From a virus (lineage: Duplodnaviria > Heunggongvirae > Uroviricota > Caudoviricetes): a stretch of 13,585 nt of DNA. Location of the stretch: the IMG/VR virus record IMGVR_UViG_2778261251_000022. One strand, given 5' to 3'. Of the stretch, positions 1 to 13,585 are shown one piece after another (the first letter of the stretch is position 1; the number at the start of each line of letters is the position of its first letter). Below the pieces are notes generated by a model, which had not been told where the DNA came from, searched no databases, and worked only from the letters and a program-made list of their open reading frames with translations. A program made the translations under genes and the position numbers.

Positions 1-291
1 TTATCTGGTGTGGTCGTAGTTCTGCCGTAGTCGTTCACCCTCAGCGCAATGACGCGGTTTTTTAACGCCGCTGGTAACGCAACGCGGGCAGGTCATGACG
101 TGGCTGATATACGCATCACGGGCAGCCAGCCACGTCGCTGACGGGGCGCACATATCCGCCAGCGCCTGGCCGTTGCTGGTGGTGTTGTCTTCCGGCCATG
201 TTTCGGGCTGGTGCGCTTCCGGTAAATCCGGTGCAGGTAATGCCCGGATAAACTCACACAATGCATCCGGCAGGCTGAATAACTTATGCAT
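1..291 (-). pseudogene. 96-aa ORF resembling an internal segment of the helicase at 991..2829; probable remnant or duplicated fragment
   Basis: Protein ...CEFIRAL...SNGQALADMC... parallels helicase ...PEFVRWL...SNGQTLADMY.... DNA 151..180 matches 1531..1560 at 29 of 30 nt, then diverges with an indel. TAA stop at 1..3 comes far earlier than in the helicase. Start at 291 (cat at 289..291 on plus). Confidence 0.35.
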
Positions 292-715
292 AAATCTGAT
301 GTTCTGAATCGCTGAAAACGTGCGTTTTATGGCGTTTTTTCGTGATTTCTGCGTGTTCTGATGTGCTCATTTCGCTGTATCCCTTGTGTGGCGCGGGCTG
401 CGCGTGTGTTTCGGTGTTCTTTTTTACCGCCAGAAAACGGTAATCAGGCATATAAACACGGCTGTAAGCCGCGCCGCGTCTGGCTTCGCGTGATTTTGTG
501 CGTCAAAAAGTGCATTTTTGCCCTTAAAAAGCGTTATTCGTAATTCACTGGTAAATGCTCCGCAGGCCGCGCCATTGCTGGCCTTTTCGCTATTCTGTGT
601 GGTTTTGCTGTTTAACCCGTTTTGCACACTAAAATTGCCTTGCATCCCGCGCCACGTAAGGGATTGCCGGGTTTTTATGTTGCGTTTTTTGCCGTGCGTA
701 ATATTGTGCAAGTTG

Positions 716-957
716 GTGGGACTGGTGGGAACTGTGGGAACCGCCTAGAACCACGCGGCTTTCAGTGGTTCCCACCAGTTCCCACGTTGGCTTTTTGTGG
801 GAACCGTGGCGGTTATTTTTTGTTCTTTGCGGTTCCCACCAGTTCCCGCAGAGTTCCCACTCAAAAACGAACAATAATCATACTGATGGTTTTATTATTT
901 ACTGATTTATATATGTTTTATTTTTACGGTTCCCACAGTTCCCACCAGTCCCACCAC
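716..957. repeat. Iteron cluster: about 12 copies of octamer GTTCCCAC/GTGGGAAC in both orientations around an AT-rich core (861..927); probable replication origin (P4 ori/crr-like)
   Basis: Copies read directly at 716-722, 725-732, 734-741, 797-804 (GTGGGAAC orientation) and 768-775, 778-785, 832-839, 842-849 (variant), 853-860, 929-936, 938-945, 948-954 (GTTCCCAC orientation). Lies immediately downstream of the helicase gene. Confidence 0.7.
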
Positions 958-990: not shown

Positions 991-2829
991 TTATTCATCA
1001 ATTGCGAATAACAATGCATTCTGGCCGATGGCGTAAACGCGGTGTTTCTCCCCGTTAACGGAAACGCGTTTTGTGTATCGGCGTTTCCCGTCCGTGTCGC
1101 GGTCAACAATCGCGCCAGCATCGTCAAGACTGGCCGCTATGCGTTTCAGGTCGTAGCCGCTGGCCGCCTCACATAGTGCTTCCGGTAAAAACCAGTAAAC
1201 CCGCTCGCCGTTGCTCCCCGGTCGCCACCATCCGGCGCGGGTGCTTACTGGTTCGCTGTATGTGCTGCCCCCTTCAAAGCGTGAAGCATGGCGGGCGATA
1301 AACCCCGCGACGGCCCGGAGTATTTTCACGTCCTCCGATTGCCCCCGCCCACGATAGTCCGCCCACGCATCAAACATCGCTTTCACTGCCTCCAGTGCTT
1401 CGCCCTGTTTCCACGGCAGAATCCCGGCAGTTATCGCCATTTCCCCGGCCAGTGCGCACAGTGTGAAACGCGCGGCGGCGCGTGCCTCCTGTCCGGTGCT
1501 TACGGGGAATTGTTCGCGCAGTATGGCGTACATATCCGCCAGCGTCTGGCCGTTGCTGTCGGTGCTGGTGGTGTCACTTTCATTGCGGGAAATCAGCCAG
1601 CGCACAAACTCCGGCCCGGCGTGGCCGTAATGGGTAGCCGCATTACCGCGCAGTGTTTCGGCAAATTTCCGGCCTGCTCCCCGGCGTTCTGTGTCGTTGT
1701 CGGGGTTGTGGGGTAGTGCCATTCCGTGAAGACAGTCAAATGCCCCGTAAAGCCGCTGTGCCGGAATATCCAGTAACCGCATTTCCTGCCCGGCCTTGAT
1801 GCGCTGGCCGCCGCTTTCCATGTGTTTACCCACGGTCATTTCCCCGGTGGAAATAATCATGGTGCGCCATGTGTTGACCGGGCGGGCCATGCCGGACACC
1901 TTGCCACGCTGACGGCCTGTTCCGTTGCCAAGCTGATAAATCAGCCCGCCAATATCTCTGGCCGGGGCTTCGCCAATTTCATCCAGTATCAGCGCGGTAT
2001 CGTTCCGCATGGTTGCCAGCCCTTCAAGCCCGGTGCTGGTGGCGTTCCAGTTGCGTTTAAAGTTGCGGGGTTCTCCCCATACGCTACAGGCCACCAGCGC
2101 CCCCACGCTTTTCCCGCTGGAACTGTCGCCCATGAAATGAAATCCGCCGCTGTCCACATCAAGCAACCACAGCAACGGCCCGGCGAGCGATGCACACACG
2201 GCCAGCATGGTTACCGGGTTTCCCCGGCATAATGCGGCCACGTTGTCGCGCCAGCCCTCCGGCGTTCCTGCGGTGGCGTACTCCTGTGAGCCTGCTTCTG
2301 TTGACTGAAACACCACATCACCATCACCGATAACCCCGCCCGGCATGACAAACAGGGCCGGGGAGTGCCACCCGGTGGCCGTGGCCGCGAGCGCCCGGCG
2401 TTTTGGTGCTGACTCCATGATGTATTCAGTCAGTGCCTGCCGTTGTTTGTAGGGAATGGTAACGCCCATGCGTAGCAGTTCCTGCCGGAGTTCTCCGCCG
2501 TCTCCGGCGAGCATTTCCATCGGTGCGGCCCATTCCCGCCACTGGCCTGACGGCGTGAGAAAACGGAGTAATCGCCCGTAGTTTTCGTCTTTGCTGTCGC
2601 TGGTCATGGCGATGACCTCCAGCGGGGAACATATAAACGTGTCTGTGTTGGTTGAGTCGCGCACGCCGTGCCAGTAAAGGCCGGGTTTCAGTATCTGGCC
2701 GCCGTCCACCTGTACATGCTGCGAATAAGTGGCGTAGCCCGGACGCGCCGGGCTGACTTTGGGGTGTTTCTTGCGTGGTGGTTTTCTCTTCCCGGATGTG
2801 ACCGGGGTTTTAGTGGTTGTCCGGGTCAT
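991..2829 (-). CDS. Replicative helicase / P-loop NTPase (P4 alpha C-terminal-like, D5/DUF927-type)
   Basis: 612-aa ORF. Walker A GDSSSGKS and Walker B ALILDEIGE visible in the translation. Sits directly downstream of the primase, overlapping its 3' end by 20 nt. ATG at 2829. Confidence 0.8.
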   Translation of the reverse strand: MTRTTTKTPVTSGKRKPPRKKHPKVSPARPGYATYSQHVQVDGGQILKPGLYWHGVRDSTNTDTFICSPLEVIAMTSDSKDENYGRLLRFLTPSGQWREWAAPMEMLAGDGGELRQELLRMGVTIPYKQRQALTEYIMESAPKRRALAATATGWHSPALFVMPGGVIGDGDVVFQSTEAGSQEYATAGTPEGWRDNVAALCRGNPVTMLAVCASLAGPLLWLLDVDSGGFHFMGDSSSGKSVGALVACSVWGEPRNFKRNWNATSTGLEGLATMRNDTALILDEIGEAPARDIGGLIYQLGNGTGRQRGKVSGMARPVNTWRTMIISTGEMTVGKHMESGGQRIKAGQEMRLLDIPAQRLYGAFDCLHGMALPHNPDNDTERRGAGRKFAETLRGNAATHYGHAGPEFVRWLISRNESDTTSTDSNGQTLADMYAILREQFPVSTGQEARAAARFTLCALAGEMAITAGILPWKQGEALEAVKAMFDAWADYRGRGQSEDVKILRAVAGFIARHASRFEGGSTYSEPVSTRAGWWRPGSNGERVYWFLPEALCEAASGYDLKRIAASLDDAGAIVDRDTDGKRRYTKRVSVNGEKHRVYAIGQNALLFAIDE

Positions 2830-3853
2830 GCTCCATTTCCCATAGCATCAAATCGTTAAAGTCGGAAAGGTCTGGTGATGCACCGGGCGGCCATTCCGGG
2901 AATGTGACGTAACACCCGGCCAGCAATGCGGCTTCGTTGGCTGCTCTGGAACCGGGGTTATCTTTTGATGCCCGGTCATCATCCCCGGCGATAACGAGAG
3001 ATATGCGCGAGCCGTATCGCTCACGCAGCGCCATAGCCACATGTTTAAGGTTTCCCGCATTCATGGCACACACCACGGCCATGACGTTCCAGTACTGGAG
3101 AAGGGCGGCCCCGGTGGCCCACCCCTCACACACGTAAACGTCATGTTCCGGCGCTTCCGGGGCCATCAGGTCAAAGCTCCCCATAACATGGAAAGCCCCC
3201 TGCACCTGACCATCACGGAGAAACATTTTTCGACCGTCCGGGCTGATAATCTGCACGTTCACCACTTCGCCGCATACGTTGTACAGCGGGACAAGCAAAT
3301 CATTACCTGACTGATACAGATTGCCGGGCTGTAGCCGTTTTTTCATGAGATAGGGATGAGAAGGGTTTGCCACCTCCGCCCGGCCAAGCAACTCAAAGGC
3401 CCGGCAGGCGGTCAGTTTCTGGCGCTGGTGGCGCTGTTGCTGTTCCCGCTGGCGGAGTCTGGCCGCCTCCTGTTCTGCGGCCTGTACCCGCACCCGTTGC
3501 GCCTCCCGTTGTTCGCGGGTCATTACATCAGGTTTGCCCAGCGCGGGCAGGCACAGCCCCAGCCTGTCCGCCACAATACGGGCGGCATCAGTCTGCCGCA
3601 CATTCCATAAATAAGCCCCCAGCGCCACAAGGTCGCCGCCGCTGTCCCCGGTGGCGAAGTCGTGCCAGCATCCGTCCACCAGCGAGACGGAAAAACTGCC
3701 CGCGTGACGGTCTGCACGCGTGGGGTTACGACACACCCATTCAGTGGCCTGCCGTTTACCTTCGGGCAGCCATTCGGGAACAAGGATTTCTGCATGTTGT
3801 GCCGCCACTGCGGCAACGCTACGGATTGCGTTAATCGTGGCTATGTCACGCAT
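2810..3853 (-). CDS. DNA primase, zinc-binding + Toprim domain (P4 alpha N-terminal-like)
   Basis: Cys/His cluster CRNPTRADRH...GCWHDF. Toprim motifs VYVCEGWATG (conserved Glu) and LVIAGDDDRASKDNPG. Start moved from the 4003 ORF start to ATG at 3853 (MRDIATINAIRS...), which has GGGAGGA upstream and abuts the TGA stop (3846..3848) of the preceding ORF. Confidence 0.85.
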   Translation of the reverse strand: MRDIATINAIRSVAAVAAQHAEILVPEWLPEGKRQATEWVCRNPTRADRHAGSFSVSLVDGCWHDFATGDSGGDLVALGAYLWNVRQTDAARIVADRLGLCLPALGKPDVMTREQREAQRVRVQAAEQEAARLRQREQQQRHQRQKLTACRAFELLGRAEVANPSHPYLMKKRLQPGNLYQSGNDLLVPLYNVCGEVVNVQIISPDGRKMFLRDGQVQGAFHVMGSFDLMAPEAPEHDVYVCEGWATGAALLQYWNVMAVVCAMNAGNLKHVAMALRERYGSRISLVIAGDDDRASKDNPGSRAANEAALLAGCYVTFPEWPPGASPDLSDFNDLMLWEMEHDPDNH

Positions 3854-4160: not shown

Positions 4161-4449
4161 GGCTTACCTCCCCGGCCTGCTGGTCGTAACACTCCATCAG
4201 TTCGGCCATACAGCCAATGAGGGCAGGGGCTGTCTGTAGAAATCCGGCTAACTGGCAGATCTCGTCTCTGGAATAGGTGATGGGGTTTTCGCGTAACTGG
4301 CTTTCCTCCAGTGCCTTACCAACAAAGGCAATCCCCGCAAGTAAATTCACTCTGTGCCAGTCTGCATCAACGCGCAGACTCCAGCGGCTTTCTTCGTCCG
4401 GCATACTGCTCATGGCGGCTTTCATTGACTCACGCAGACAATCACGCAT
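4153..4449 (-). CDS. Hypothetical small protein (about 98 aa)
   Basis: Internal ATG at 4449 chosen (MRDCLRESMK...) because the longer 4530 start would overlap the upstream 65-aa gene. Stop at 4153..4155 sits 2 nt from the next ATG (4160). Start is uncertain (4449 vs 4530). Confidence 0.5.
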   Translation of the reverse strand: MRDCLRESMKAAMSSMPDEESRWSLRVDADWHRVNLLAGIAFVGKALEESQLRENPITYSRDEICQLAGFLQTAPALIGCMAELMECYDQQAGEVSHA

Positions 4450-4639
4450 GACGCACCCCCTGAGCCGGAACGCGGCCAGCAAACAGCAACACAAAATCAC
4501 GCGCCAGCATACGGCGGGCGGTTGTTTCATCGGGTGCGTTGACGGATTCGCGGTGTGGGCGGTCGTTCAGGTCGGAACGGCGAACAGCCAGAAAGTGAAA
4601 GGTAAATTCAGGGTGTAACGGGGTTGGGGTCGTAGCCAT
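4442..4639 (-). CDS. Hypothetical small protein (65 aa), first gene of the leftward operon
   Basis: C-terminal part of the 201-aa track ORF. ATG at 4639 is preceded by a strong AAAAGGAGG RBS. The longer N-terminal extension runs through structured, GC-rich intergenic DNA and is judged spurious. Confidence 0.55.
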   Translation of the reverse strand: MATTPTPLHPEFTFHFLAVRRSDLNDRPHRESVNAPDETTARRMLARDFVLLFAGRVPAQGVRHA

Positions 4640-5065
4640 TCTGGCAGCCTCCTTTTGCAAATTTAAGGAGTCACCGCCTGAGTTCCTACACTCATAAGGG
4701 GCGGTGACGCTGGCAGGGGTAGGAATACCGGCGCAAAAGGAAACCGGCCAGCCTTTCGGCTGCCCCACCAGCGCCACCATAGATACAGTGCGGGTCTTGC
4801 CGCTGTGCATGGGTGCGCGATGGCACGACACAAAAAAAGACGCTGGGCGCGTCTGTGTCGCCTTTTGCTCATTAAACGGGTTCCTACGCCCGGCTGGTGG
4901 ATTTACACCAGCGGGGGAAATATAACGCCCACCAGCGATGGCAGGCAAGCAATATTTGCGGTTGCCGCCCATCCCGTGGGGCGTGTGGTGGTTGTTTTGG
5001 GCGTGAGAACGCCCCGGCCCTGTTACGGGCCTTTCTGGCATTTTCATAATGATTATCGCGGTTGG
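4640..5065 (-). promoter_or_regulatory. Structured leader / promoter region between the alpA-like gene and the small-gene/primase operon (candidate immunity or regulatory RNA region)
   Basis: About 425 bp without a convincing ORF. Several stem-loops: GTCACCGCC(4672-4680)/GGCGGTGAC(4702-4710); GCTGGTG...CACCAGC near 4890-4915; GGGCGT-gaga-ACGCCC near 5002-5017. Plus the terminator at 4827..4859. Confidence 0.4.
4827..4859 (-). terminator. Intrinsic-terminator-like hairpin followed by a T7 run on the minus strand
   Basis: Minus strand reads AGACGC-GCCCA-GCGTCT then TTTTTTT (plus 4832..4854). Lies within the alpA to small-gene intergenic leader. Confidence 0.45.
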
Positions 5066-5320
5066 TTAGTGGCTGGTGGGTTCTTTGTTTTTTTGCGCTC
5101 TGGCGATAATTTCTGCCATTACGTTATTGCGTTCCTCCACGCGGGCCGCAAGCCATGCATTAACTTCGGATTCAAACCATCCAACGCGGCGCAGCCCGCG
5201 ACGAAAGCCGGGGATAAATTCGCCAGCCCGAATCATGTCGTCAATGCTGGTAGTGGAACGAAGGCGCAGACGCGCAGCAACCTCGCGTTTGGTGAGGATT
5301 TTATCTTGTGTGGTGTCCAT
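5066..5320 (-). CDS. alpA: AlpA/Vis-family small DNA-binding regulator (excisionase-like HTH)
   Basis: 84 aa from ATG 5320 with AAGAGG RBS. Sequence KREVAARLRLRSTTSIDDMIRAGEFIPGFRRGLRRVGWFESEVNAWLAAR fits the AlpA/prophage-regulatory-protein pattern. Position next to the integrase module is typical. Confidence 0.75.
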   Translation of the reverse strand: MDTTQDKILTKREVAARLRLRSTTSIDDMIRAGEFIPGFRRGLRRVGWFESEVNAWLAARVEERNNVMAEIIARAQKNKEPTSH

Positions 5321-5453: not shown

Positions 5454-6332
5454 CTAATCAACCTTAAACCAGCGTCGCATGGTTTTTTGTGAGGGCAGAG
5501 ATAAACCAGCTTTGCAAAAATCGTTTTCTAATTCTGTTGGCTGGCCCTTGGTTTTGTCTTCTCTTACATGAAGCCATGGTTTGCCTCGCTTCGTTTCATC
5601 CTTGTAATACAGATAAAGCAAATCATCCACAAAAGCAGGCAGTGCGCTTCTTGGGTCTGGTTGTGTCGTCGGTGATGGTAGTTTTTTGGTTATGCACCCC
5701 ATTAACATCCCGTTAGCGCAATCTCTCCCGCCATCCTTAAGGATTTCGATTTCTTCGGCGGTAATAAACAGGTCATCAATGCTTACATCGAGTGGACTGG
5801 AATCAAAAGTAATCATCGGGCTGAGGGAATAATCGTCACCGTCAGTGTTCATTGTCCTTGGCTTTCCAAGAGAAAAACGAGCCGATGACTTTCCATATTT
5901 TACAAAATCATAAAAAGGCATGGATTTGGTCAGGTTGCATATGGACATTAACCCTTCTATGGTCAAGTACCTGTATCCCATTAAAGGTATTTGGTTTTTC
6001 GGAATACCTCTGGGACGTTCTTCACTGATAAACAGAATTGCTGTTGTGACTTCAAAATCTCCCGCGCTATATGGTGTATAGACGGTAAATGGTAGCTGAC
6101 ACAGTGAATCGCCAAGCGGTTTAAATAAAACATACTTATCAGTTGATTTAGTTTCATAATGGTTAAACAGGTCAATTTCAGCCCGCCACCTTCCTGATAT
6201 ATGTGTACAAATCTCCAGCATTCCTATGTCAGCAAAATGAAGCAAATCATCAACACTGCACTTATTGGAGTTTGCAGTCAGATAACTGGCCGCATCGCGT
6301 AGTGAGTAAAACAATCTTTTAGGTAATGCCAT
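5454..6332 (-). CDS. Hypothetical protein (292 aa), cargo gene between integrase and alpA
   Basis: ORF whose ATG (6332) lies 2 nt after the integrase TAA stop (6334..6336). Visibly more AT-rich than the flanking backbone. No motif recognised. Confidence 0.65.
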   Translation of the reverse strand: MALPKRLFYSLRDAASYLTANSNKCSVDDLLHFADIGMLEICTHISGRWRAEIDLFNHYETKSTDKYVLFKPLGDSLCQLPFTVYTPYSAGDFEVTTAILFISEERPRGIPKNQIPLMGYRYLTIEGLMSICNLTKSMPFYDFVKYGKSSARFSLGKPRTMNTDGDDYSLSPMITFDSSPLDVSIDDLFITAEEIEILKDGGRDCANGMLMGCITKKLPSPTTQPDPRSALPAFVDDLLYLYYKDETKRGKPWLHVREDKTKGQPTELENDFCKAGLSLPSQKTMRRWFKVD

Positions 6333-6333
6333 A

Positions 6334-7608
6334 TTATTCACCAACCACTTTTAAGCCACGAAAACCGCCAGTTGCACTAAGGCTTCCGGTTGCTGCCTGT
6401 TCGATAAAATCACCCCACCACGCCATCAGTGGGCGGCGTTGCTCCAGATATGTGGAGCGATTGTAAGCCCGTCTCACCGTGTCCTTATCCAGATGGGAAA
6501 GCGCAGCCTCTATTACATCTGGCGGGAACCCCTGTTCATTAAGCGCCGTACTTGCTACAGAGCGTAAACCATGCGCCACCAGCTTTCCGGTATACCCCAT
6601 GCGCCTGATAGCGGCGTTTGCGGTCTGTTGATGCATCCCACGCATGGGGTCGCTGTTATGTGGAAAAACAAACTTTCGATGCCCGCTGATTGGGCGCATG
6701 GCTTCAAGAATGGCCATTGCCTGATTATTCAGGGGGACAATGTGCTCCCTTCGTTGTTTTAGTCGCCCGGCTGATATACGCCACACTCTGGCATCTGCAT
6801 CTATCTCGCTCCACTGTGCCCCGGCTGCCTCGCATGGGCGGCAAATAGTTAATAATTGCCATTCAATAACAAGACGCGTTTGAAGTTCTGCGCGAGCCGT
6901 TGCCAGTTTTTGCATAAATTCCGGCAACTCATCAGGCCTGATTGTTGGCATGTGTTTAACTACAGGTGGGTTGAATGCCTTGCTGATTTGAGCGGCGGGA
7001 TTAGCTGGAATTAATCCAATATTCACTGCGTAATACATAACCTCATTGATTCTTTGTGCCAGCCGTCGCACCGTATCCGCTTTGCCCTGTGCTGATACAG
7101 GTTTCAGGGCTTCGATAAAATCCCGTGCAACCAGTTCTGTGATTGGGCGATGGCCTATGGGTGGCAGCACATGACGCTCAAGAGAACGCCATATATCACG
7201 GAGTGTATTTGCCGCCAGATTCTGGCCGCGCTTTACTTCAAACCATTCTTCGGCCACGCGCTGAAATGTGTTTAATCGCCGTATTTCATCATCCCGGCGT
7301 TGTTTTTCCCTGTGTTCTTTGGGGTCAGTTCCATTTGCGACCAGTGAGCGATACTCGTCTTTAATCCTGCGAGCATCGGCAATGCTGATTTCGGGATATG
7401 CACCAAGGCTTAACATTGCCCGTTTTTTGGTGTGTGGCTTGTAGTACCGGAACCGCCATAAGGCTGATGCGCTACCCGCTTTCACAACTAACTCCAGCCC
7501 ATCGCCATCCGTGATAAATAAATCCTTCTCGGCGGTGAGCGATTTCTTCTGCAAACTTTTAATCGTCGCTGGTGTAAGTAATTTTGTGTTTTTGGCCACT
7601 GGTTGCAT
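6334..7608 (-). CDS. int: Tyrosine site-specific integrase (P4-type, with N-terminal arm-binding domain)
   Basis: 424 aa. N-terminal WRFRYY motif. C-terminal catalytic signature AHGLRSV...LSHLDKDTVRRAYNRSTY (R, H-x-x-R, H, Y). 5' end faces the tRNA fragment. Confidence 0.9.
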   Translation of the reverse strand: MQPVAKNTKLLTPATIKSLQKKSLTAEKDLFITDGDGLELVVKAGSASALWRFRYYKPHTKKRAMLSLGAYPEISIADARRIKDEYRSLVANGTDPKEHREKQRRDDEIRRLNTFQRVAEEWFEVKRGQNLAANTLRDIWRSLERHVLPPIGHRPITELVARDFIEALKPVSAQGKADTVRRLAQRINEVMYYAVNIGLIPANPAAQISKAFNPPVVKHMPTIRPDELPEFMQKLATARAELQTRLVIEWQLLTICRPCEAAGAQWSEIDADARVWRISAGRLKQRREHIVPLNNQAMAILEAMRPISGHRKFVFPHNSDPMRGMHQQTANAAIRRMGYTGKLVAHGLRSVASTALNEQGFPPDVIEAALSHLDKDTVRRAYNRSTYLEQRRPLMAWWGDFIEQAATGSLSATGGFRGLKVVGE

Positions 7609-7796: not shown

Positions 7797-7843
7797 TGGT
7801 GGCCCCTGCTGGACTTGAACCAGCGACCAAGCGATTATGAGTC
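7797..7843 (-). tRNA. Partial tRNA: 3' 47 nt only (anticodon loop CUCAUAA with anticodon CAU, variable loop, T-arm, acceptor 3' strand, CCA); probable att core/direct repeat, not a functional gene
   Basis: Minus strand reads ACTCATAATCGCTTGGTCGCTGGTTCAAGTCCAGCAGGGGCCACCA: T-stem GCTGG/CCAGC with loop TTCAAGT, acceptor GGGGCC plus ACCA. The 5' half (acceptor 5' strand, D-arm, 5' anticodon stem) is absent, as upstream is ...gcctcatg. From memory it matches the 3' part of enterobacterial tRNA-Ile2 (ileX/ileY type); this is unverified. Confidence 0.8.
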
Positions 7844-7967
7844 ATGAGGCAAGTTCGTTCTATATTGTTTTTGTTTGTTCGTAATTGCTTTATTAGTTGT
7901 TTATAATCAATGAATTATGTAATTTTCTCTGTCTCCGCTTGGTTCCGTTTTTTCTTCATTGTACGAT

Positions 7968-7992
7968 CGTTACCTGACCCATTACCTGACCC
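7968..7992 (+). repeat. Tandem direct repeat TTACCTGACCC x2 upstream of integrase 2 (possible arm-type or regulatory site)
   Basis: cgTTACCTGACCCaTTACCTGACCCaaaatc read directly; copies at 7970-7980 and 7982-7992. Confidence 0.4.
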
Positions 7993-8039
7993 AAAATCAC
8001 GAGTTATTCTGATTGTTACTGGTTTAGAAAAGAGGTTCT

Positions 8040-9356
8040 ATGGCCGTCAATCTTACTGAAACAGCCATCCGAGCATTGAAAGCAAAAAAGACATCGTTCT
8101 ATGTCTGGAGCAACAGCTCTCAACGTGGCACTGGACGACTTGGTGTCAAAGTTCAGTCTTCTGGCAGCAAGATTTTCTATTTCCGCTATTACGTGGAAAA
8201 AGGGAAAAAAGAAAGATTCATTCAATTGGGTATATGGCCTGAGATGAAACTGGCCACAGCGAATGAACTGGCAAAAAAGTATGGTGCCTGGCTCATTGAA
8301 GGAAAGGATCCCCAGGCAGAACTGGAACGACAACAGTTTGCAGAACAGCAGCGGATACAACTCCATCAATCACAGGGCTCATTTGAAGCATTGATTCATG
8401 GTTATGTTAACAAAATGAAAATTGATAATAAGAGGACATGGCAGGATGTTCTGAAACGCCTTGAAAATGAATGCTATACAGTGATCCCCCGTGAAACTAA
8501 AGCTAAAGATGTGACTTCCGGACAGATTAAACATATCCTGGCCGGGATCATTCAGCGTGGTGCTGTGGTTCACTCTAACCGGATCCGTTCTTACCTGATG
8601 GCTGCATTTAACTATGGACTGAAAGCAGATAACGATCCGATGAACACAAGTGCAGGGATTACTTTTGGGCTGGAGGCAAATCCGGTGTCAGTGATACCGA
8701 AACAGTCATCTGCTGAAAAAGTCGGTGATACCTGGCTGACACTTGAAGAGTTGCGTTTTCTAATGGAACATTTTGCTGAAGCAACCAACGTTGGATTATT
8801 GATGCAACATTTGATCCGATTCTGTATCTATACCGGAGGGCAACGTCCCTTCGAAATGATCGCCAGTCAGTGGTGTGATGTTGATTTTCAACAAAAAACG
8901 CTGCTGGTGACTGCTGATGTCTCTAAAAATAAACGAGAGCATTTGATACCGTTGACTGAATCAGCATTACAGGAATTATCCTGTGTGCAGGAGTTAACAA
9001 AAGAAAAATCCAGCCCTTACATTTTTCCACTTTCGACTAATGGTAAGCGTCCGGTTCGTACGGACAGTCTGGCTCGCGCTATCATGTATTTCCGGGCTTT
9101 TAATCCTGACTTTAAAATTTTTACAGCACGTGACTTACGTCGGACCTGTAAAACGTTAATGGGAGAAGCTGGGATCAGTAAGGAAATCCGCGATCGTATT
9201 CAAAATCATGCGTTGAACGATGTCAGTTCAAAACATTATGATCGATACGATTATTTGCCAGAAAAACGCAGAGCACTTGAGATCTGGGAGGACCGGGTTA
9301 ATAACTATCAACAGCAAACAGGCAATAATGTTGTCAATCTGTTTGGCAGAAGGTGA
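8040..9356 (+). CDS. int: Tyrosine site-specific integrase (second, distinct from the one at 6334..7608)
   Basis: 438 aa. AAGAGG RBS 5 nt upstream of ATG. N-terminal FYFRYY arm-binding-type motif. C-terminal RDLRRT...IQNHALNDVSSKHYDRYDY (R, H, Y catalytic residues). Confidence 0.88.
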   Translation: MAVNLTETAIRALKAKKTSFYVWSNSSQRGTGRLGVKVQSSGSKIFYFRYYVEKGKKERFIQLGIWPEMKLATANELAKKYGAWLIEGKDPQAELERQQFAEQQRIQLHQSQGSFEALIHGYVNKMKIDNKRTWQDVLKRLENECYTVIPRETKAKDVTSGQIKHILAGIIQRGAVVHSNRIRSYLMAAFNYGLKADNDPMNTSAGITFGLEANPVSVIPKQSSAEKVGDTWLTLEELRFLMEHFAEATNVGLLMQHLIRFCIYTGGQRPFEMIASQWCDVDFQQKTLLVTADVSKNKREHLIPLTESALQELSCVQELTKEKSSPYIFPLSTNGKRPVRTDSLARAIMYFRAFNPDFKIFTARDLRRTCKTLMGEAGISKEIRDRIQNHALNDVSSKHYDRYDYLPEKRRALEIWEDRVNNYQQQTGNNVVNLFGRR

Positions 9357-9455
9357 GGGAGTTCCTGGTCGCTGTACGAATTGTGTACAATCGATGGGTA
9401 TTGTTGATGCACTTGGTTCTTGTATTGTTTACTATAATTATTGAGGTAAATTTTC

Positions 9456-10082
9456 GTGCCGGTATTACTCAGAGGGGATTCAAAAATGGCTGTAATTCCA
9501 ATGTCTTACTCCCCTGCTACTGTAGCTCGTCGTTTTTCGATACTGGATGGAGTAACTATTCAGGGCGTGCTTTACCAGATCATCTGGGATCCAAAGACTC
9601 CGTTTGCTGCGGTAATCGAAGCTGCACCTTCTGTTATTGATGGTGATGTTCGCCATAAGGTTGTTGCCACTCTGGAGCTTCAGCGTCGTCCCCGGCTTGA
9701 AGGCGTGTTTGTCCAGAAATTCTGGGAAGAACAGGATGTTGCTCAGATTGAAGGGATTGTTGTCGATGGCGCTGTACGTGATGTTGGTCTTGCAACGTTT
9801 GTTTATGAAACGATAGTCACAAAAGCGGGCGTTGTACTATTAAGTGATAACGAGCAATATGAAGGAGGTAAAGCTCTCTGGCAGCATATTGCGCGTCGTT
9901 CAACGAATCTGAAGGTGTTTATTTTAGATACTGATTCCGCACGGTATTACCCGTTTGATGGCGAACGGATCAGTTATGACGGGAAAAGCATCCCGGAATC
10001 AGAAATCTGGAGTGAACATCCTGAGCGAAACAGACACGCTGTCGTTCTTGTGGCTGAATCTGTTAATGGTAAAGCCGCATAA
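9456..10082 (+). CDS. Hypothetical protein (about 198-208 aa)
   Basis: ORF downstream of integrase 2. Two candidate starts: GTG 9456 (GAGGT 8 nt upstream) or ATG 9486 (GAGGGG 7 nt upstream). Followed by a hairpin terminator. No confident motif. Confidence 0.6.
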   Translation: MPVLLRGDSKMAVIPMSYSPATVARRFSILDGVTIQGVLYQIIWDPKTPFAAVIEAAPSVIDGDVRHKVVATLELQRRPRLEGVFVQKFWEEQDVAQIEGIVVDGAVRDVGLATFVYETIVTKAGVVLLSDNEQYEGGKALWQHIARRSTNLKVFILDTDSARYYPFDGERISYDGKSIPESEIWSEHPERNRHAVVLVAESVNGKAA

Positions 10083-10129
10083 TTTGCCGAGTGTCTCGTT
10101 TTTTGAGATCTTGCTGGAAAGTCTCCCTT

Positions 10130-10158
10130 GGGGATAGCGAACTGCTATCCCCTTTCTC
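10130..10158 (+). terminator. Hairpin terminator between convergent genes
   Basis: GGGGATAGC-GAACT-GCTATCCCC followed by TTTCTC on the plus strand. Sits between the stop of the plus-strand ORF (10082) and the stop of the minus-strand ORF (10165). Confidence 0.55.
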
Positions 10159-10164
10159 AGTGAG

Positions 10165-11769
10165 TTACTGTTCGACCAGACATTTTCCCCATAAAGGTCG
10201 TATCGAGTATCTATCTTCGCTATATGGATTTATTTTATTTTTTTCCCTCTGTGCTATCAGCAACGTGTCGATCTCATCCTTAATAATGTGTTGAACTGTT
10301 TGACGGTAACGGTTAAGCGAAGTGTCACTGATATCTTGTGGAAGTTGTAGACTGCCATCTGCCTTGACGAGTTCATTCACACCATCTTTAATTTTGCGTC
10401 CCTGACCATCAGGTATACCTTCATTCAGATCATAGCCTTTCAGTCCTGCAAGACGAATATTCACGTCAATCTTTTCTGTACGTTTCTTTTTGTTACTTAC
10501 CAACAGAATTTTATTGGCGTTATACCATTTTTCAAATGTTTCCAGTTGTTTCATGATGTTTGTGAAGTTATTCAGTTCGCTCCTGAATTCAATAGATTTT
10601 CTAATTTCACGCTCTTTTGCATCAATGTTTGTTCCTGGATAATTTATTTCCCTTTTTAACGGTTCTATGTATGCCTGTTGCAGGCAACCAGCAAGATTCA
10701 TTGCTGCATCCTGCAGGGTATTGGTATAAATCAGTTTCAGAAGTTCATCGCGCTGTATAGTGATTTGACAATAGTCTTTTTCCCATGCGGTGGTGTTTTC
10801 AATCGTGTCACTTTCATCGGAAATAATTGTTGTGAATTTCCAGGTGTAACGAATAAAATCATTTCCTTTAAAATATTGCACTAATTTATTTAACCATTCA
10901 TATATTTCCAGAGCATAAAGTTTAACGTATCCATCATATATTATCTTTGTTGCATTTTTGTTGGCTAGCGAAAACATTTTGTCCACGAATTCTGTACGCC
11001 CGATTGTTAGCAATTGTTTTCTAAGTTTACTCACATCGTTAGTATCTGGTTTCTCACAATTCCAGGGACTTTTGTATTCATTTTCAAAAGGAGAAAGCCA
11101 TTCAGGAATCTCTGTTTCTGAGTGATAGCAGTTGTTAATAGCCAAACCAAGGGTTCTGGCAAGTATCGCTGATTCATCAATTTGATGGTATCGGTTCAGT
11201 TGTTCCAGTAATTCTTTAGTACATGAGTGCGCAACAGAAAGATCCTGATGGCAATATCCTTGTCGAACCAGAGCGGGAAGTGGTGAGCAATGAGCTTTGC
11301 AATCTGTCAGAATATTGAACAAATCGTTTCTGACGAATTCTTCCATCTCAGGTGTTTTCCAGCCACCACTATTTTGGCCGACAAATTTTGCTGTTGGTTC
11401 CCTGTTCATATCTCCCCAGGTTTTCAGGCTGACGAGTCTGTTATCAAAACCATTGTATAAATGGCACATAACCTGAAAAGCAGCATACAGCTCTTTAGAT
11501 AGTGGATTATCGGTCTCACCTATGGAGTAGTCCTCTCTATTTTGCTCTAAAATATTTTGTAGTTTTGTGTTAGCGCGTAATGCCGAGAGAATCCGATGTT
11601 GTTCATCAAACCAGGGACGATATTCTGGATCCAGATACAATCTGCGTGCTTTGAAAATGAGTAGAAGCAACTGTTCGGAAACAGCTTCATGTATGTGGGG
11701 AAACGGCATGGAGGTGCCAGATAAAACACGATAGTACGGGTGGTTTGTTTTTACCTTTTTAGTTACCAT
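10165..11769 (-). CDS. Hypothetical protein (534 aa), AT-rich cargo gene of unknown function
   Basis: Long uninterrupted ORF in AT-rich DNA, which is statistically unlikely by chance. TAA stop at 10165..10167. Transcribed divergently from the AT-rich intergenic region it shares with the alpA-like gene. No canonical catalytic motif recognised. Confidence 0.75.
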   Translation of the reverse strand: MVTKKVKTNHPYYRVLSGTSMPFPHIHEAVSEQLLLLIFKARRLYLDPEYRPWFDEQHRILSALRANTKLQNILEQNREDYSIGETDNPLSKELYAAFQVMCHLYNGFDNRLVSLKTWGDMNREPTAKFVGQNSGGWKTPEMEEFVRNDLFNILTDCKAHCSPLPALVRQGYCHQDLSVAHSCTKELLEQLNRYHQIDESAILARTLGLAINNCYHSETEIPEWLSPFENEYKSPWNCEKPDTNDVSKLRKQLLTIGRTEFVDKMFSLANKNATKIIYDGYVKLYALEIYEWLNKLVQYFKGNDFIRYTWKFTTIISDESDTIENTTAWEKDYCQITIQRDELLKLIYTNTLQDAAMNLAGCLQQAYIEPLKREINYPGTNIDAKEREIRKSIEFRSELNNFTNIMKQLETFEKWYNANKILLVSNKKKRTEKIDVNIRLAGLKGYDLNEGIPDGQGRKIKDGVNELVKADGSLQLPQDISDTSLNRYRQTVQHIIKDEIDTLLIAQREKNKINPYSEDRYSIRPLWGKCLVEQ

Positions 11770-12548
11770 AATGTTAAATTCTTCCGTCTATTGCATAGCT
11801 GTTTCCAGTAGAGAAACTTGATACAGTCCTTTGTCAGGACATTGATACAGAGTTAACAGCCTCTACGAAATGGGAATCAGTTATGCAGTGGCATTATACG
11901 ATGCTGAATCTAATACGATATCCTTAGCGTTTATTCCTGATTTTTTTACGAGCATTCCCTTTTGTTGCATATTGCTCAGGACGTAAATGATTTTACGGTT
12001 ATAGCCCTCTACAGTCACGTCACTTTCATCTGAAAATATGTATCGTTTTCATTCAATTATTATCTTTTGTCTGCACTTTAGCTTTAGCAAGTTGGCAAAA
12101 ATCAACTCCCTCTTACAAGTTCTATTATCGCCAGAAGATAATTTTGTGAACTTCGTCACGTTTTCAAACTAATGTTGTGGGGGCTTTTCTGGGGAAAATT
12201 TTTGGTCACTACCCCTCCTCTTGATATCATAGATCATAACAAGATTTTTTTTGTTTTTGTCTGCATAAAATAACCTGCAAAGATTATGATTTTGGTTTTT
12301 ATTTTGTATATTAAAAAGTATTGTTTGAATTATTTTTATATTGTGACTTTCTTTGTTGTTATTGTGTTATTAGAAGTCAGTTAATTAAATCAATTCTCGC
12401 AATTTGATTTCTTGGTTGTGCAAATGTATTGTTTTGCTCGTGAGTTGCTGGTGCTGTTCAACAGCATACCACTACAGATAGATGTAGTGATTTGAGCAGC
12501 TCACATGCATATACAATCTGAAAATCATGAATGTATAAGGAGAGCAAT
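11770..12548. promoter_or_regulatory. Long AT-rich divergent intergenic region (probable divergent promoters for the 534-aa gene and the alpA-like gene)
   Basis: About 780 bp with no ORF of 60 aa or more. Very AT-rich with A/T tracts, typical of horizontally acquired promoter regions. Confidence 0.4.
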
Positions 12549-12776
12549 ATGTGGAAGCCGTTAAGAGATGAGAACCGTTTATCAATTTTGAAGATCTATG
12601 GATACACCTGTGACAGACTGGTACGAGAAGAGGAACGTCAGAACATTACGTCTATTTCTCGTTCACAAGCCTGGAAACTGGAACGTGAAGGAAAATTCCC
12701 GCCACGTAAAACTATTGGAAAGAAATCCTGTGGGTGGTTATTAAGTGATCTATTGTGGTGGATTAGTCAGTATTAA
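12549..12776 (+). CDS. AlpA-family-like small DNA-binding regulator (75 aa)
   Basis: ATG at 12549 preceded by AAGGAG (7-nt spacer); the upstream in-frame ATG at 12531 lacks an RBS. ...ITSISRSQAWKLEREGKFPPRKTIGKKSCGWLLSDLLWWI fits the AlpA-like HTH pattern. Confidence 0.6.
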   Translation: MWKPLRDENRLSILKIYGYTCDRLVREEERQNITSISRSQAWKLEREGKFPPRKTIGKKSCGWLLSDLLWWISQY

Positions 12777-12838
12777 CCTTATAGTATCAGAATAATATAT
12801 ATTTCTATATTTTAATTTTATAATTAAAAAGGAGTTTC

Positions 12839-13585
12839 ATGATGAAACGTGTCTCTTTCTCTCTTGCAGAAACATATGAAGCTGATGTAATTAAAAAGTA
12901 TCAGCATTTAAAAAAATGTTCATTTTCAGCAGCGATTAAAGAGTGTTTAAAGCTAGGGGCTCCTGTTTTAAACAGGATAAATGAAAATATTGCTGCTATA
13001 ACTGATATAGAGGATAAGCTACGTCAGTTTTTTAATGAGGAACCATTTGTGCAACGGACAAAGCCTGAAATAACAAAAGGAGAGTTTTTTCATAGCATTT
13101 ATAAATCGCATATCAAATATGAATATGATGTTCTCGATAGAAAGATATTTCCTCATGAAAGCACCAGAAATGCTATGGGAGTTGCAGAGAAAAAGGGAAT
13201 TAAAGAGAATGCGATCTTAATGCTGGAATATTATAAAGTTGAGAAGGCAATTTGTATTTACACGAACAGAAAAGTTTCCCATGCCCTGAATCGTGCAGGA
13301 GGGTTTTATAAAACCATTCTGATTAAAACCAGTGTTTTTGGGGATTATTTTTTTGACTTTTGCAATTCAGTTTGCCTGCCGATAGATGAATTGATTGAGT
13401 ATGGTACGAAAGAAACAGTGAGGCGACATCAGATTCGTAGTACAGGATTTTGTACTTTTCATATTCCGATTTTTTATATCAATAATAAGGCTGTAATAGT
13501 GCCTGTTCTGAGAACAGAGGAAGTTTCACAAAGTTCCAGAACAGGTGGAGATGTTATTATTATTAACCCATTTGAAGATGAATGA
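12839..13585 (+). CDS. Hypothetical protein (248 aa) with possible N-terminal ribbon-helix-helix fold
   Basis: Strong AAAAGGAG RBS. N-terminus KRVSFSLAETYEADVIKKYQHL...SFSAAIKECLKLG has a beta-strand/helix/helix pattern reminiscent of CopG/RHH. Stop codon is the last 3 nt of the window. Confidence 0.65.
   Translation: MMKRVSFSLAETYEADVIKKYQHLKKCSFSAAIKECLKLGAPVLNRINENIAAITDIEDKLRQFFNEEPFVQRTKPEITKGEFFHSIYKSHIKYEYDVLDRKIFPHESTRNAMGVAEKKGIKENAILMLEYYKVEKAICIYTNRKVSHALNRAGGFYKTILIKTSVFGDYFFDFCNSVCLPIDELIEYGTKETVRRHQIRSTGFCTFHIPIFYINNKAVIVPVLRTEEVSQSSRTGGDVIIINPFEDE

What the first reader, a model, noticed from the sequence alone, without database searches (positions are those of the whole stretch)
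716..957. Iteron-type replication origin: about 12 GTTCCCAC octamers in two orientations around an AT-rich core
Dense, oriented octamer repeats with a central ~65-bp AT-rich stretch, immediately downstream of the primase-helicase genes, is the architecture of P4 ori/crr, where the alpha protein binds repeated octamers. The octamer here (GTTCCCAC) is not the one I recall for P4 itself, so the initiator probably has a different specificity.
Basis: partly seen in the sequence, partly recalled or inferred. Interest (0 to 1): 0.55.

Follow-up and report, generated by a model that had tools for sequence, protein, structure and literature searches.

The report
Iteron replication origin of a satellite-like island
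A cluster of twelve short repeats next to an easily melted AT-rich stretch, just after a helicase gene in a small E. coli chromosomal island, is very probably the island's own replication origin, of a kind already known from staphylococcal pathogenicity islands.

Summary
Window 716-953 carries 12 copies of GTTCCCAC: 9 exact, 1 GTTCCCGC and 2 shortened GTCCCAC. Chance predicts 0.38 exact copies in the whole window. Eight copies lie on one strand and four on the other. The 66-bp stretch at 861-926 has 18% GC and is the least stable DNA of the island.

The array begins 35 nt after the stop of a 612-aa DUF927 helicase, which follows a Toprim primase gene. The AT stretch is off-centre, with 3 copies on the helicase side and 9 on the far side.

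The helicase is not P4 alpha-like. Over its full length it is a structural homologue of the SaPIbov1 Rep initiator-helicase and of SCCmec Cch, including their C-terminal winged-helix domain. SaPI and PICI origins are iterons around an AT-rich region directly downstream of rep.

Of 33 relatives with enough downstream DNA, 26 carry an array at the same place, but with lineage-specific words. The word tracks the helicase C-terminal domain rather than its core. Iterons are 98% conserved where the spacers between them are 70% conserved.

The island has a P4-type regulatory backbone (C4/isrK RNAs, Ash/Icd, P4-type integrase).

Verdict: a Rep-dependent iteron origin and a new member of a known kind. 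Function is inferred, not shown.

The parts
927..956 (+). Helicase-proximal arm with three iterons: GTTCCCAC at 929-936 and 938-945, and the shortened GTCCCAC at 947-953. It is one arm of a perfect 30-nt inverted repeat.
   Evidence: The arm is identical in E. coli, E. albertii and Tenebrionibacter.
861..926 (.). AT-rich spacer, 66 bp at 18% GC. Proposed DNA-unwinding element.
   Evidence: it is the least stable 60-mer of the island. A 67-77-nt spacer of 16-26% GC sits at the same offset in all 10 arrays of the enterobacterial group, this window included. There is no significant hairpin potential.
832..860 (+). Middle triplet of iterons: GTTCCCAC at 832-839, GTTCCCGC at 842-849, GTTCCCAC at 853-860.
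797..804 (-). Single iteron in the opposite orientation.
   Evidence: It is collinear in relatives.
768..785 (+). Pair of iterons: GTTCCCAC at 768-775 and 778-785.
714..743 (-). Distal arm with three iterons in the opposite orientation: 734-741, 725-732 and the shortened copy at 716-722. It is the second arm of the 30-nt inverted repeat.
991..2829 (-). DUF927, MCM-like initiator-helicase (Rep) of 612 aa. The Walker A motif GDSSSGKS and Walker B motif LDEIGE are intact. The C-terminal domain maps to residues ~470-612 (window 994-1422), and within it the winged-helix part lies at residues ~530-612 (window 994-1242).
   Evidence: - Pfam DUF927, E = 8e-83.
- PDB sequence hits to 5DGK and 8TCH.
- AlphaFold model with pLDDT 82.
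- Foldseek: 5DGK E = 1e-23, 8TCH E = 1e-20.
- Invariant catalytic columns.
2810..3853 (-). Toprim primase of 347 aa, overlapping the start of the helicase gene.
   Evidence: Pfam Toprim_3, PHROG DNA primase, homology to the primase domain of P4 alpha at E = 1e-14, and the RefSeq annotation.
4697..4912 (-). P4-type immunity RNAs upstream in the same operon: C4 antisense RNA at 4697-4784 and isrK at 4833-4912. These are context; they probably control expression of the replication genes.
   Evidence: Rfam matches above the gathering score.
6334..7608 (-). Island integrase of the P4 type (arm-binding domain plus catalytic domain). This is context: the origin would act on the excised circle.
   Evidence: Pfam. 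The island sits at tRNA-Ile.

Best explanation
Window 714-956 is the vegetative replication origin of an integrative island of about 8.3 kb with a P4-like regulatory backbone. The proposed steps, all inferred, are as follows.
1. When the leftward operon is derepressed, the Toprim primase and the DUF927 helicase are made.
2. The helicase acts as its own initiator. Its C-terminal winged-helix domain reads the 8-bp iterons (GTTCCCAC), which sit one helical turn apart in clusters of both orientations.
3. Hexamers assemble on the iteron clusters on either side of the 66-bp AT-rich stretch, probably as two rings.
4. The AT-rich stretch melts and the rings load onto single strands as 3'-5' helicases, with no separate loader.
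5. The Toprim primase lays down primers and the host polymerase copies the excised circle.

Shown here:
- the repeats and the low stability of the AT-rich stretch;
- the homology of the helicase and of its DNA-binding domain to SaPIbov1 Rep and Cch;
- the conserved position and layout of the array in relatives;
- selection on the iterons;
- co-variation of the iteron word with the C-terminal domain.

Inferred, not shown: binding, melting, loading, priming and actual replication.
For: 1. **Statistics.** There are 9 exact octamers where 0.38 are expected, all within 222 nt.
2. **Position.** The array begins 35 nt after the stop of the DUF927 gene. SaPI origins lie immediately downstream of rep: 6-12 iterons with an AT-rich region, read by a winged-helix domain in the Rep C-terminal domain (PMC9371898; PMC7581432). 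[quoted passage not shown]
3. **Initiator homology.**
   - Sequence hits to Cch (5DGK, 1e-17) and SaPIbov1 Rep (8TCH, 1e-12).
   - Full-length Foldseek matches at 1e-23 and 1e-20.
4. **Comparative anatomy.**
   - 26 of 33 relatives (34-99% helicase identity) have an array of 6-13 copies starting 25-71 nt after the stop.
   - In those above about 35-40% identity the block order is shared: 2-4 forward, spacer, 2-3 forward, 1-3 reverse, 1-2 forward, 2-3 reverse.
5. **The word changes in every copy at once between lineages**: GTGGGAAC, GTGGGGAC, CCGGGAAC, GTGGCAAC, TGGTTAC, ATGGAAGAC, GGTGTTAC and others.
6. **The word follows the C-terminal domain.**
   - E. coli against Salmonella or Klebsiella relatives: helicase core 89% identical, last 100 residues only 52-54% identical, and a different iteron.
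   - Within groups sharing an iteron, C-terminal identity is usually about equal to core identity. The Brenneria-Pseudomonas and Xanthobacter-phiAH14b pairs in the Against line are the exceptions.
7. **Selection.** Between E. coli and Tenebrionibacter, iteron positions are 98% identical against 70% for the DNA between them (Fisher p = 6e-9).
8. **The AT-rich stretch** is the least stable DNA of the island.
9. **Not coding or known RNA.** There is no RefSeq CDS. Mechanical ORFs have no family hits. Single-base indels occur in relatives. No Rfam family matches.
10. **The helicase looks functional.** Its ATPase motifs are intact.
Against: - No experiment exists. Binding and replication are inferred.
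- Layout differs from the SaPI description:
  - the iterons are 8 bp rather than 5-6 bp;
  - the AT-rich stretch is off-centre (3 copies against 9);
  - the copies directly flanking it point the same way.
- The equivalent spacer is not AT-rich in the Pseudomonas clade (61-66% GC). The 'unwinding element' role of that position is therefore not universal in the family.
- Seven of 33 relatives show no clear array, or only a weak one.
- Some pairs share an iteron although their C-terminal domains are diverged:
  - Brenneria and Pseudomonas, at 47-49% identity;
  - Xanthobacter (L022) and phage phiAH14b (L036), which share GGGGAACA at 32% C-terminal and 37% core identity.
- Some pairs have different iterons although their C-terminal domains are 75-81% identical. 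The mapping from domain to word is therefore not simple.
- In two mobilisable islands of Vibrio, a DUF927 gene was dispensable for mobilisation and its role was called elusive (PMC7449626).
Confidence: 0.85

Rival explanations
1. It is a P4-type ori or crr. An alpha-like primase-helicase would bind the octamers through alpha's own C-terminal origin-binding domain, and replication would need two distant cis sites.
For: - The island has a P4-type backbone: C4 and isrK RNAs, Ash/Icd and a P4-type integrase.
- The Toprim protein is homologous to alpha's primase domain.
- P4 crr lies about 46 nt after the alpha stop, with octamers in two orientations and a 60-bp spacer.
Against: - The helicase has no detectable similarity to alpha (E = 0.35). 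It is DUF927, SF6 and MCM-like.
- TGTTCACC is absent from the window.
- All exact copies lie in one cluster, both in the window and in a 28.5-kb locus covering the island.
Confidence: 0.03
2. The array is bound by the helicase's C-terminal domain or by another island protein, but serves regulation rather than initiation. Possible roles are copy-number control (handcuffing), autoregulation or transcription termination. The true origin would lie elsewhere.
For: - Iterons in plasmids often double as control elements (established knowledge).
- The array sits between two co-oriented genes, the helicase and a 96-aa ORF.
- A second, degenerate phased array lies beyond the 96-aa ORF.
Against: - No other iteron cluster or comparably unstable region exists in the island.
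- The array keeps a fixed distance from the helicase stop, whereas the genes downstream differ or are convergent in relatives.
- Homologous Rep proteins use exactly such arrays as origins.
Confidence: 0.06
3. It is a packaging site (cos or pac), a partition site or an integrase arm-site array, not a replication element.
For: Satellites need a packaging signal, and none was identified in this island.
Against: - There is no terminase, ParA/ParB or other candidate binder in the island.
- There is no P2/P4 cos sequence.
- The array lies more than 1.2 kb from one island end and about 6.9 kb from the other. That is too far for arm-type sites.
- The repeat word co-varies with the helicase C-terminal domain.
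Confidence: 0.03
4. The repeats are part of a protein-coding or structural RNA gene.
For: Mechanical ORFs of 116 aa (622-972, +) and 81 aa (629-874, -) span the array.
Against: - Both ORFs start at TTG and have no Pfam or PHROG hits.
- None of the E. coli records read has a CDS there.
- Single-base indels in the Tenebrionibacter alignment break the frames.
- Conservation is confined to the 8-mers, not to codons.
- No Rfam family reaches threshold.
Confidence: 0.01

Closest known systems
SaPIbov1 (and SaPI2) Rep-ori replicon of Staphylococcus aureus pathogenicity islands
   Same: - The initiator is a DUF927, SF6, MCM-like self-loading helicase with a C-terminal winged-helix domain.
- A separate primase gene lies just upstream.
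- The origin lies directly downstream of rep.
- The origin has 6-12 short iterons in both orientations plus an AT-rich region.
   Different: - The host is Gram-negative.
- Sequence identity is only ~15-17%.
- The iterons are 8 bp rather than 5-6 bp.
- The AT-rich region is off-centre, and its immediately flanking iterons are co-oriented.
- The primase is of the Toprim (P4 alpha-like) type.
- The island's regulation is P4-like (C4/isrK RNA) rather than Stl-based.
Gram-negative PICI origins (for example EcCICFT073; Fillol-Salom et al. 2018, PMC6092414)
   Same: - The host is E. coli.
- The genes int, alpA-like and pri/rep are unidirectional.
- The ori lies immediately 3' of the initiator gene, with two sets of iterons and an AT-rich region.
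   Different: - This island is only ~8.3 kb and has no capsid, packaging or interference genes.
- The replication gene of those islands is called 'pri', a single replication primase ('sometimes fused'). Here primase and helicase are separate genes.
- The helicase here is DUF927 rather than the Pox_D5/D5_N type. Both types are pooled under 'Primase' in surveys.
- No helper phage is known.
Satellite phage P4 crr/ori with alpha protein
   Same: - Octamer iterons in two orientations start ~46 nt after the helicase gene (crr) and surround a ~60-bp spacer.
- The primase domain is homologous.
- The immunity RNAs are of the same type, as is the integrase family.
   Different: - The helicase and origin-binding domain belong to a different family.
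- The word differs: TGTTCACC in P4 against GTTCCCAC here.
- P4 needs two cis regions about 4.5 kb apart, and its crr is a tandem 120-bp duplication. Here there is one cluster, bounded by a 30-nt inverted repeat.
SCCmec Cch/Cch2 helicases and their putative origin
   Same: Cch is the best structural match of the helicase. Cch2 binds iterons just downstream of its own gene through its C-terminal domain.
   Different: - No origin has been defined for Cch itself.
- Cch2 has only three 5-nt direct repeats.
- SCC replication has not been demonstrated.

Membership tests
SaPI/PICI-type Rep-ori replicon | Origin located immediately 3' of the initiator (rep) gene | tested here: met
   The proximal repeat arm ends 35 nt before the helicase stop codon. 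The placement is the same in 26 of 33 relatives.
SaPI/PICI-type Rep-ori replicon | Six to twelve short iterons, on both sides of an AT-rich region, with both orientations represented | tested here: met
   There are 12 copies, 3 and 9 on the two sides of a 66-bp stretch of 18% GC, with 8 on one strand and 4 on the other. Departures from the description: 8-mers, an off-centre AT stretch, and co-oriented copies directly flanking it.
SaPI/PICI-type Rep-ori replicon | Initiator is a hexameric helicase with a C-terminal winged-helix DNA-binding domain, homologous to a SaPI Rep | tested here: met
SaPI/PICI-type Rep-ori replicon | Primase gene adjacent to rep | tested here: met
   The Toprim_3 protein at 2810-3853 overlaps the start of the helicase gene.
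SaPI/PICI-type Rep-ori replicon | Rep binds its cognate iterons specifically | not testable with these tools
   There is indirect support only. The iteron word follows the C-terminal domain rather than the helicase core, and all copies change together.
SaPI/PICI-type Rep-ori replicon | The pri-rep-ori segment drives autonomous replication | not testable with these tools
   This needs a plasmid maintenance assay like the one done for EcCICFT073.
P4 ori/crr (alpha-dependent) | Initiator is alpha: primase, SF3 helicase and C-terminal origin-binding domain in one polypeptide | tested here: not met
   Helicase against alpha gives BLASTP E = 0.35. Only the separate primase matches alpha residues 153-262.
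P4 ori/crr (alpha-dependent) | Type-1 octamer TGTTCACC | tested here: not met
   There are 0 copies in the window. The P4 word was read from the P4 record.
P4 ori/crr (alpha-dependent) | Two separate cis regions (ori and crr) carrying the same octamer | tested here: not met
   There is a single cluster, both in the window and in a 28.5-kb locus that spans the island. A degenerate CGGGA array about 1 kb away uses a different word.
Gram-negative PICI (element level) | int, alpA and pri/rep transcribed in one direction, at a specific att site | tested here: met
   The integrase, AlpA-like HTH protein (weak Pfam match, PHROG excisionase), primase and helicase all lie on the - strand. The island sits at tRNA-Ile.
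Gram-negative PICI (element level) | Size of 10-20 kb with phage-interference, packaging or late genes | tested here: not met
   The island is ~8.3 kb. No capsid, terminase or interference gene was recognised.
Gram-negative PICI (element level) | Induction and transfer by a helper phage | not testable with these tools
   No helper is known and no P2/P4 cos site was found.
Plasmid iteron origins (RepA/pi/TrfA class) | Direct repeats of 17-22 bp bound by a non-helicase Rep, plus DnaA boxes | tested here: not met
   The repeats are 8 bp and lie in both orientations. The nearest DnaA-box match (620-628) is outside the array and at chance level, and there is no IHF consensus in the array. The initiator is a helicase.

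The most novel reading that the evidence does not exclude
The DUF927 (MCM-like) self-loading helicases of Proteobacteria may share a stereotyped origin grammar that has not been described. It consists of a forward triplet, a spacer, a forward triplet, a reverse block, a forward block and a reverse triplet, bounded by a perfect inverted repeat, with the melting region placed asymmetrically. Specificity would be re-set by swapping the C-terminal winged-helix domain together with its origin. This would give mutually orthogonal replicons, so that related islands could co-reside without cross-talk. In this E. coli island, a second phased array of degenerate CGGGA sites beyond the next gene could be a low-affinity control site, analogous to P4 crr or to plasmid inc repeats.
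Probability: 0.3. Interest if true: 0.5.

Novelty: new member of a known kind. Interest (0 to 1): 0.35.

Why it matters
- **Annotation.** It explains a 700-bp 'empty' intergenic region in a small island found in 32 of 5,426 complete E. coli genomes, mostly porcine enterotoxigenic strains. It also marks the island as a self-replicating, probably satellite-like, element.
- **Role of DUF927 genes in Gram-negative islands.** That role has been called elusive (PMC7449626). The gene would be an initiator-helicase with a recognisable origin just downstream.
- **A natural specificity series.** Relatives supply matched pairs of C-terminal domain and iteron that differ by single bases (GTGGGAAC, GTGGGGAC, CCGGGAAC, GTGGCAAC). 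These could be used to study how a winged helix on a ring helicase reads DNA, or to build orthogonal replicons.
- **Limit.** It does not change the general picture of how such islands replicate.

Tried and rejected
- **Known RNA families.** An Rfam scan of 200-1200 at E <= 1 gave only sub-threshold chance hits to plastid, miRNA and flavivirus families.
- **Promoters and terminators.** The scan of 1-1300 found nothing above expectation.
- **Similar DNA in phages.** A search with 600-1100 found no match.
- **Literature search for the octamer.** It returned only unrelated primer sequences. A search for the P4 octamer together with 'bacteriophage P4' found nothing, so the P4 word was read from the P4 GenBank record instead.
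- **Primary SaPI origin papers.** Ubeda 2007 and Ubeda 2012 are not held. Their content is cited only through later papers.
- **Host-factor sites.** DnaA-box and IHF consensus scans found none in the array.
- **Hairpins in the spacer.** Folding the AT-rich spacer and its equivalents in 6 relatives gave z-scores from -1.7 to +1.0. There is no conserved structure.
- **P2/P4 cos site.** It is absent from the island locus.
- **Small plasmids as natural proof of replicon function.**
  - pTAO100 (6.4 kb) also has a RepM gene and no array, so it is uninformative.
  - A 7-kb Salmonella record has a fused Toprim-DUF927 gene followed by an array of about 9-11 GGTAACA copies. However, it may be an assembly contig rather than a plasmid.
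  - Pseudomonas 'phage' vB_Pae_U10 has the gene pair but no clear array.
- **One homologue not on record.** P0055 could not be found for context.
- **Frameshifted relatives.** L003 and L011 carry frameshifts in the helicase core, so their core identities are unreliable.

Full report
**1. The observation**

The window was read directly. GTTCCCAC occurs 9 times, all between 725 and 945. Shuffles predict 0.38 copies in the whole 13,585 nt, and none of 200 shuffles reaches 9.

Allowing one mismatch adds GTTCCCGC at 842-849. The other one-mismatch hits are scattered at chance level.

Eight copies are on the + strand and four on the - strand. Neighbours within a cluster are 9-11 bp apart. The outer triplets form a perfect 30-nt inverted repeat, 714-743 and 927-956.

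The stretch 861-926 has 18% GC. It is the least stable 60-mer of the island part of the window, which averages 53.7% GC. It is not central: three copies lie between it and the helicase gene, and nine lie beyond it.

**2. Context**

The genes to the right of the array, all on the - strand, are as follows:

| Window coordinates | Gene |
|---|---|
| 991-2829 | DUF927 protein, 612 aa (Pfam E = 8e-83) |
| 2810-3853 | Toprim primase |
| between the primase and 4442 | two small genes of unknown function |
| 4442-5047 | Ash/Icd-like gene |
| 5066-5320 | AlpA-like HTH protein |
| 5454-6344 | 296-aa gene of unknown function |
| 6334-7608 | P4-type integrase |

- Rfam finds a C4 antisense RNA (4697-4784) and an isrK RNA (4833-4912) inside the Ash/Icd gene. 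This is the P4 type of immunity.
- The same DNA, at 95-100% identity, lies in the chromosome of 32 of 5,426 complete E. coli genomes, mostly porcine ETEC.
- There it forms an island of about 8.3 kb between nfeF and a tRNA-Ile gene.
- RefSeq annotates no gene between the helicase and a 96-aa ORF at 1-291.
- The mechanical ORFs across the array have no family hits. No Rfam family matches there.

**3. What the helicase is**

- By sequence it matches two solved structures: SCCmec Cch (5DGK, E = 1e-17) and 8TCH (E = 1e-12). The fold search names 8TCH as the initiator-helicase of SaPIbov1.
- An AlphaFold model (pLDDT 82) aligns over its full length with both, at Foldseek E = 1e-23 and 1e-20. MCM proteins follow.
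- The Walker A and B motifs are invariant in an alignment of 40 homologues.
- Against P4 alpha the helicase shows nothing (E = 0.35). The Toprim protein does match alpha's primase domain (E = 1e-14).

**4. What is known about such proteins**

- SaPIbov1 Rep is the DUF927 type of SaPI initiator, and Cch is its SCCmec relative (PMC7581432; PMC9371898).
- SaPI origins lie immediately downstream of rep. They consist of 6-12 iterons of 5-6 nt with an AT-rich region near the centre. They are read by the winged helix of the Rep C-terminal domain. Two hexamers are thought to self-load on either side of the AT region.
- E. coli PICIs have the same organisation. Deleting rep or ori of EcCICFT073 abolished or reduced plasmid maintenance (PMC6092414).

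**5. Comparative test**

Loci encoding relatives of the helicase came from four sources:
- one genome per species (26 loci, 34-99% identity);
- exact look-ups of seven database homologues;
- two small 'phage' records;
- two small plasmid records.

Of the 33 relatives counted here that had at least 300 nt downstream, 26 have a clear array starting 25-71 nt after the stop codon. It holds 6-13 copies (one mismatch allowed) of an 8- or 9-mer in both orientations and spans 90-292 nt. Seven have none or only a weak one.

In relatives above roughly 35-40% identity the order of blocks is shared: 2-4 forward copies, a spacer of 50-78 nt, 2-3 forward, 1-3 reverse, 1-2 forward, 2-3 reverse.

The word differs by lineage:

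| Lineage | Iteron word |
|---|---|
| E. coli, E. albertii, Tenebrionibacter | GTGGGAAC |
| Four Salmonella and Klebsiella relatives | GTGGGGAC |
| Brenneria and a Pseudomonas clade | CCGGGAAC |
| Providencia (two relatives) | GTGGCAAC and TGGTTAC |
| P. fluorescens | ATGGAAGAC |
| Paraburkholderia | GTGGTGAC |
| Oxalobacteraceae | GGTGTTAC and GGTGTTCC |
| Methylophilaceae | TCGGGGCA |
| Xanthobacter and phage phiAH14b | GGGGAACA |

An alignment of seven enterobacterial arrays shows that they are collinear. The difference between words is present in every copy at once.

**6. Selection and co-variation**

- Between E. coli and Tenebrionibacter, which share the same word, iteron positions are 98% identical. 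The DNA between them is 70% identical (Fisher p = 6e-9).
- The helicase core (residues 30-470) of the E. coli protein is 89% identical to the Salmonella and Klebsiella relatives that use GTGGGGAC. The last 100 residues are only 52-54% identical.
- Within most groups that share a word, the two values are about equal: 88/89, 85/82, 78/79 and 89/86. The origin word therefore travels with the C-terminal domain.
- There are exceptions, so the code is not simple:
  - Brenneria and Pseudomonas share a word at 47-49% C-terminal identity.
  - Xanthobacter and phiAH14b share GGGGAACA at 32% C-terminal identity.
  - Two Providencia proteins differ in word at 75% identity.

**7. Limits**

- The AT-rich character of the spacer holds for all ten arrays of the enterobacterial group, this window included (16-26% GC against 49-65% for the gene). 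It does not hold in the Pseudomonas clade (61-66% GC).
- The spacer has no significant hairpin potential in any lineage tested.
- No DnaA box or IHF consensus lies in the array.
- None of the functional steps has been tested: binding, melting, loading, priming.

**8. Comparison with P4**

The P4 record shows crr starting about 46 nt after the alpha stop. It consists of two 120-bp direct repeats, each with five TGTTCACC octamers in both orientations, separated by 60 bp. A second site, ori, lies about 4.5 kb away.

The window resembles crr in position and in the use of octamers. It differs in four ways:
- it has no TGTTCACC;
- it has only one cluster;
- its boundary is an inverted repeat rather than a tandem duplication;
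- its helicase is of another family.

The element is therefore P4-like in regulation and in its primase, and SaPIbov1-like in its initiator and origin.

**9. Verdict**

The closest known system is the SaPI/PICI Rep-ori replicon, not P4 alpha with ori and crr.

This is a new member of a known kind. What is modestly new is the conserved block grammar, together with the series of matched C-terminal domains and iteron words across Proteobacteria. This comes in a protein family whose role in Gram-negative islands has been called elusive.

Noticed in passing
L001 13290-13385, that is about 15-110 nt to the left of window position 1, just 3' of the 96-aa ORF at window 1-291 (-): There is a second phased array of about 8 co-oriented degenerate copies of CGGGA at a spacing of ~10.4 bp. 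In helicase sense they read CCGGGAAC, CCGGGAGA, GCGGGAGA, GCGGGATT, CCGGGAAT, ACGGAAAT, CCGGGATT, GTGGGAC. The array shares the GGGA(A) core with the origin iteron, and one copy equals the Brenneria/Pseudomonas word. It is present only in the near-identical E. coli and E. albertii islands and not in other relatives. Possible readings are an auxiliary or control site, or the remnant of another origin.
   Followed up: partly
window 4697-4784 (-) and 4833-4912 (-): A C4 antisense RNA and an isrK RNA, both above the Rfam gathering score, lie inside the Ash/Icd-like ORF at 4442-5047. This is P4-type RNA immunity in an island that lacks P4's alpha helicase, sid, psu and delta.
   Followed up: partly
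window 7798-7844: Only the 3' part of the tRNA-Ile gene is present (47 nt), and ARAGORN finds no tRNA. In other strains an intact tRNA-Ile sits here. In this window a different island begins at 7844.
   Followed up: partly
window 7844-13585: A second genomic island abuts the first. It has a tyrosine recombinase at 8040-9356 (+), a 534-aa protein of unknown function at 10165-11769 (-), an AlpA-family gene at 12531-12776 (+), and very AT-rich intergenic DNA (10-12% GC at 12283-12342 and 12771-12830). In the two genomes that hold the whole window, it continues into inovirus-Gp2/YagK-like genes and sugar-utilisation genes.
   Followed up: no
L036 (Pseudomonas phage phiAH14b, KU708005) 9300-9530; L035 (vB_Pae_U10, PP003922): Two small records deposited as phages (16.8 and 10.2 kb) have the satellite-like order of int, alpA, Toprim and DUF927. 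phiAH14b has an 11-copy GGGGAACA array after its helicase. vB_Pae_U10 has no clear array, and an annotated ORF starts 92 nt after its helicase.
   Followed up: partly
L004-L008 and L011, 53-109 nt after the helicase stop: In the Pseudomonas clade the spacer that is AT-rich in enterobacteria has 61-66% GC. It is flanked by a second repeated word, GGGTCACA (4 copies in L004). Where these origins melt is unclear.
   Followed up: no
L003 (Tenebrionibacter intestinalis) and L011 (Ectopseudomonas toyotomiensis) helicase genes: A frameshift or internal stop appears in the helicase core when it is read in one frame, at codons ~157 and ~314. These are either decaying copies or sequencing errors. The downstream arrays are intact.
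   Followed up: no
window 4442-5047 (-): In this window Ash and Icd-like form one 201-aa ORF. RefSeq splits the identical region of strain P13-6 into an 'ash pseudogene' plus a 65-aa Icd-like protein, but annotates one 201-aa protein in strain HCP5S3_I2.
   Followed up: no
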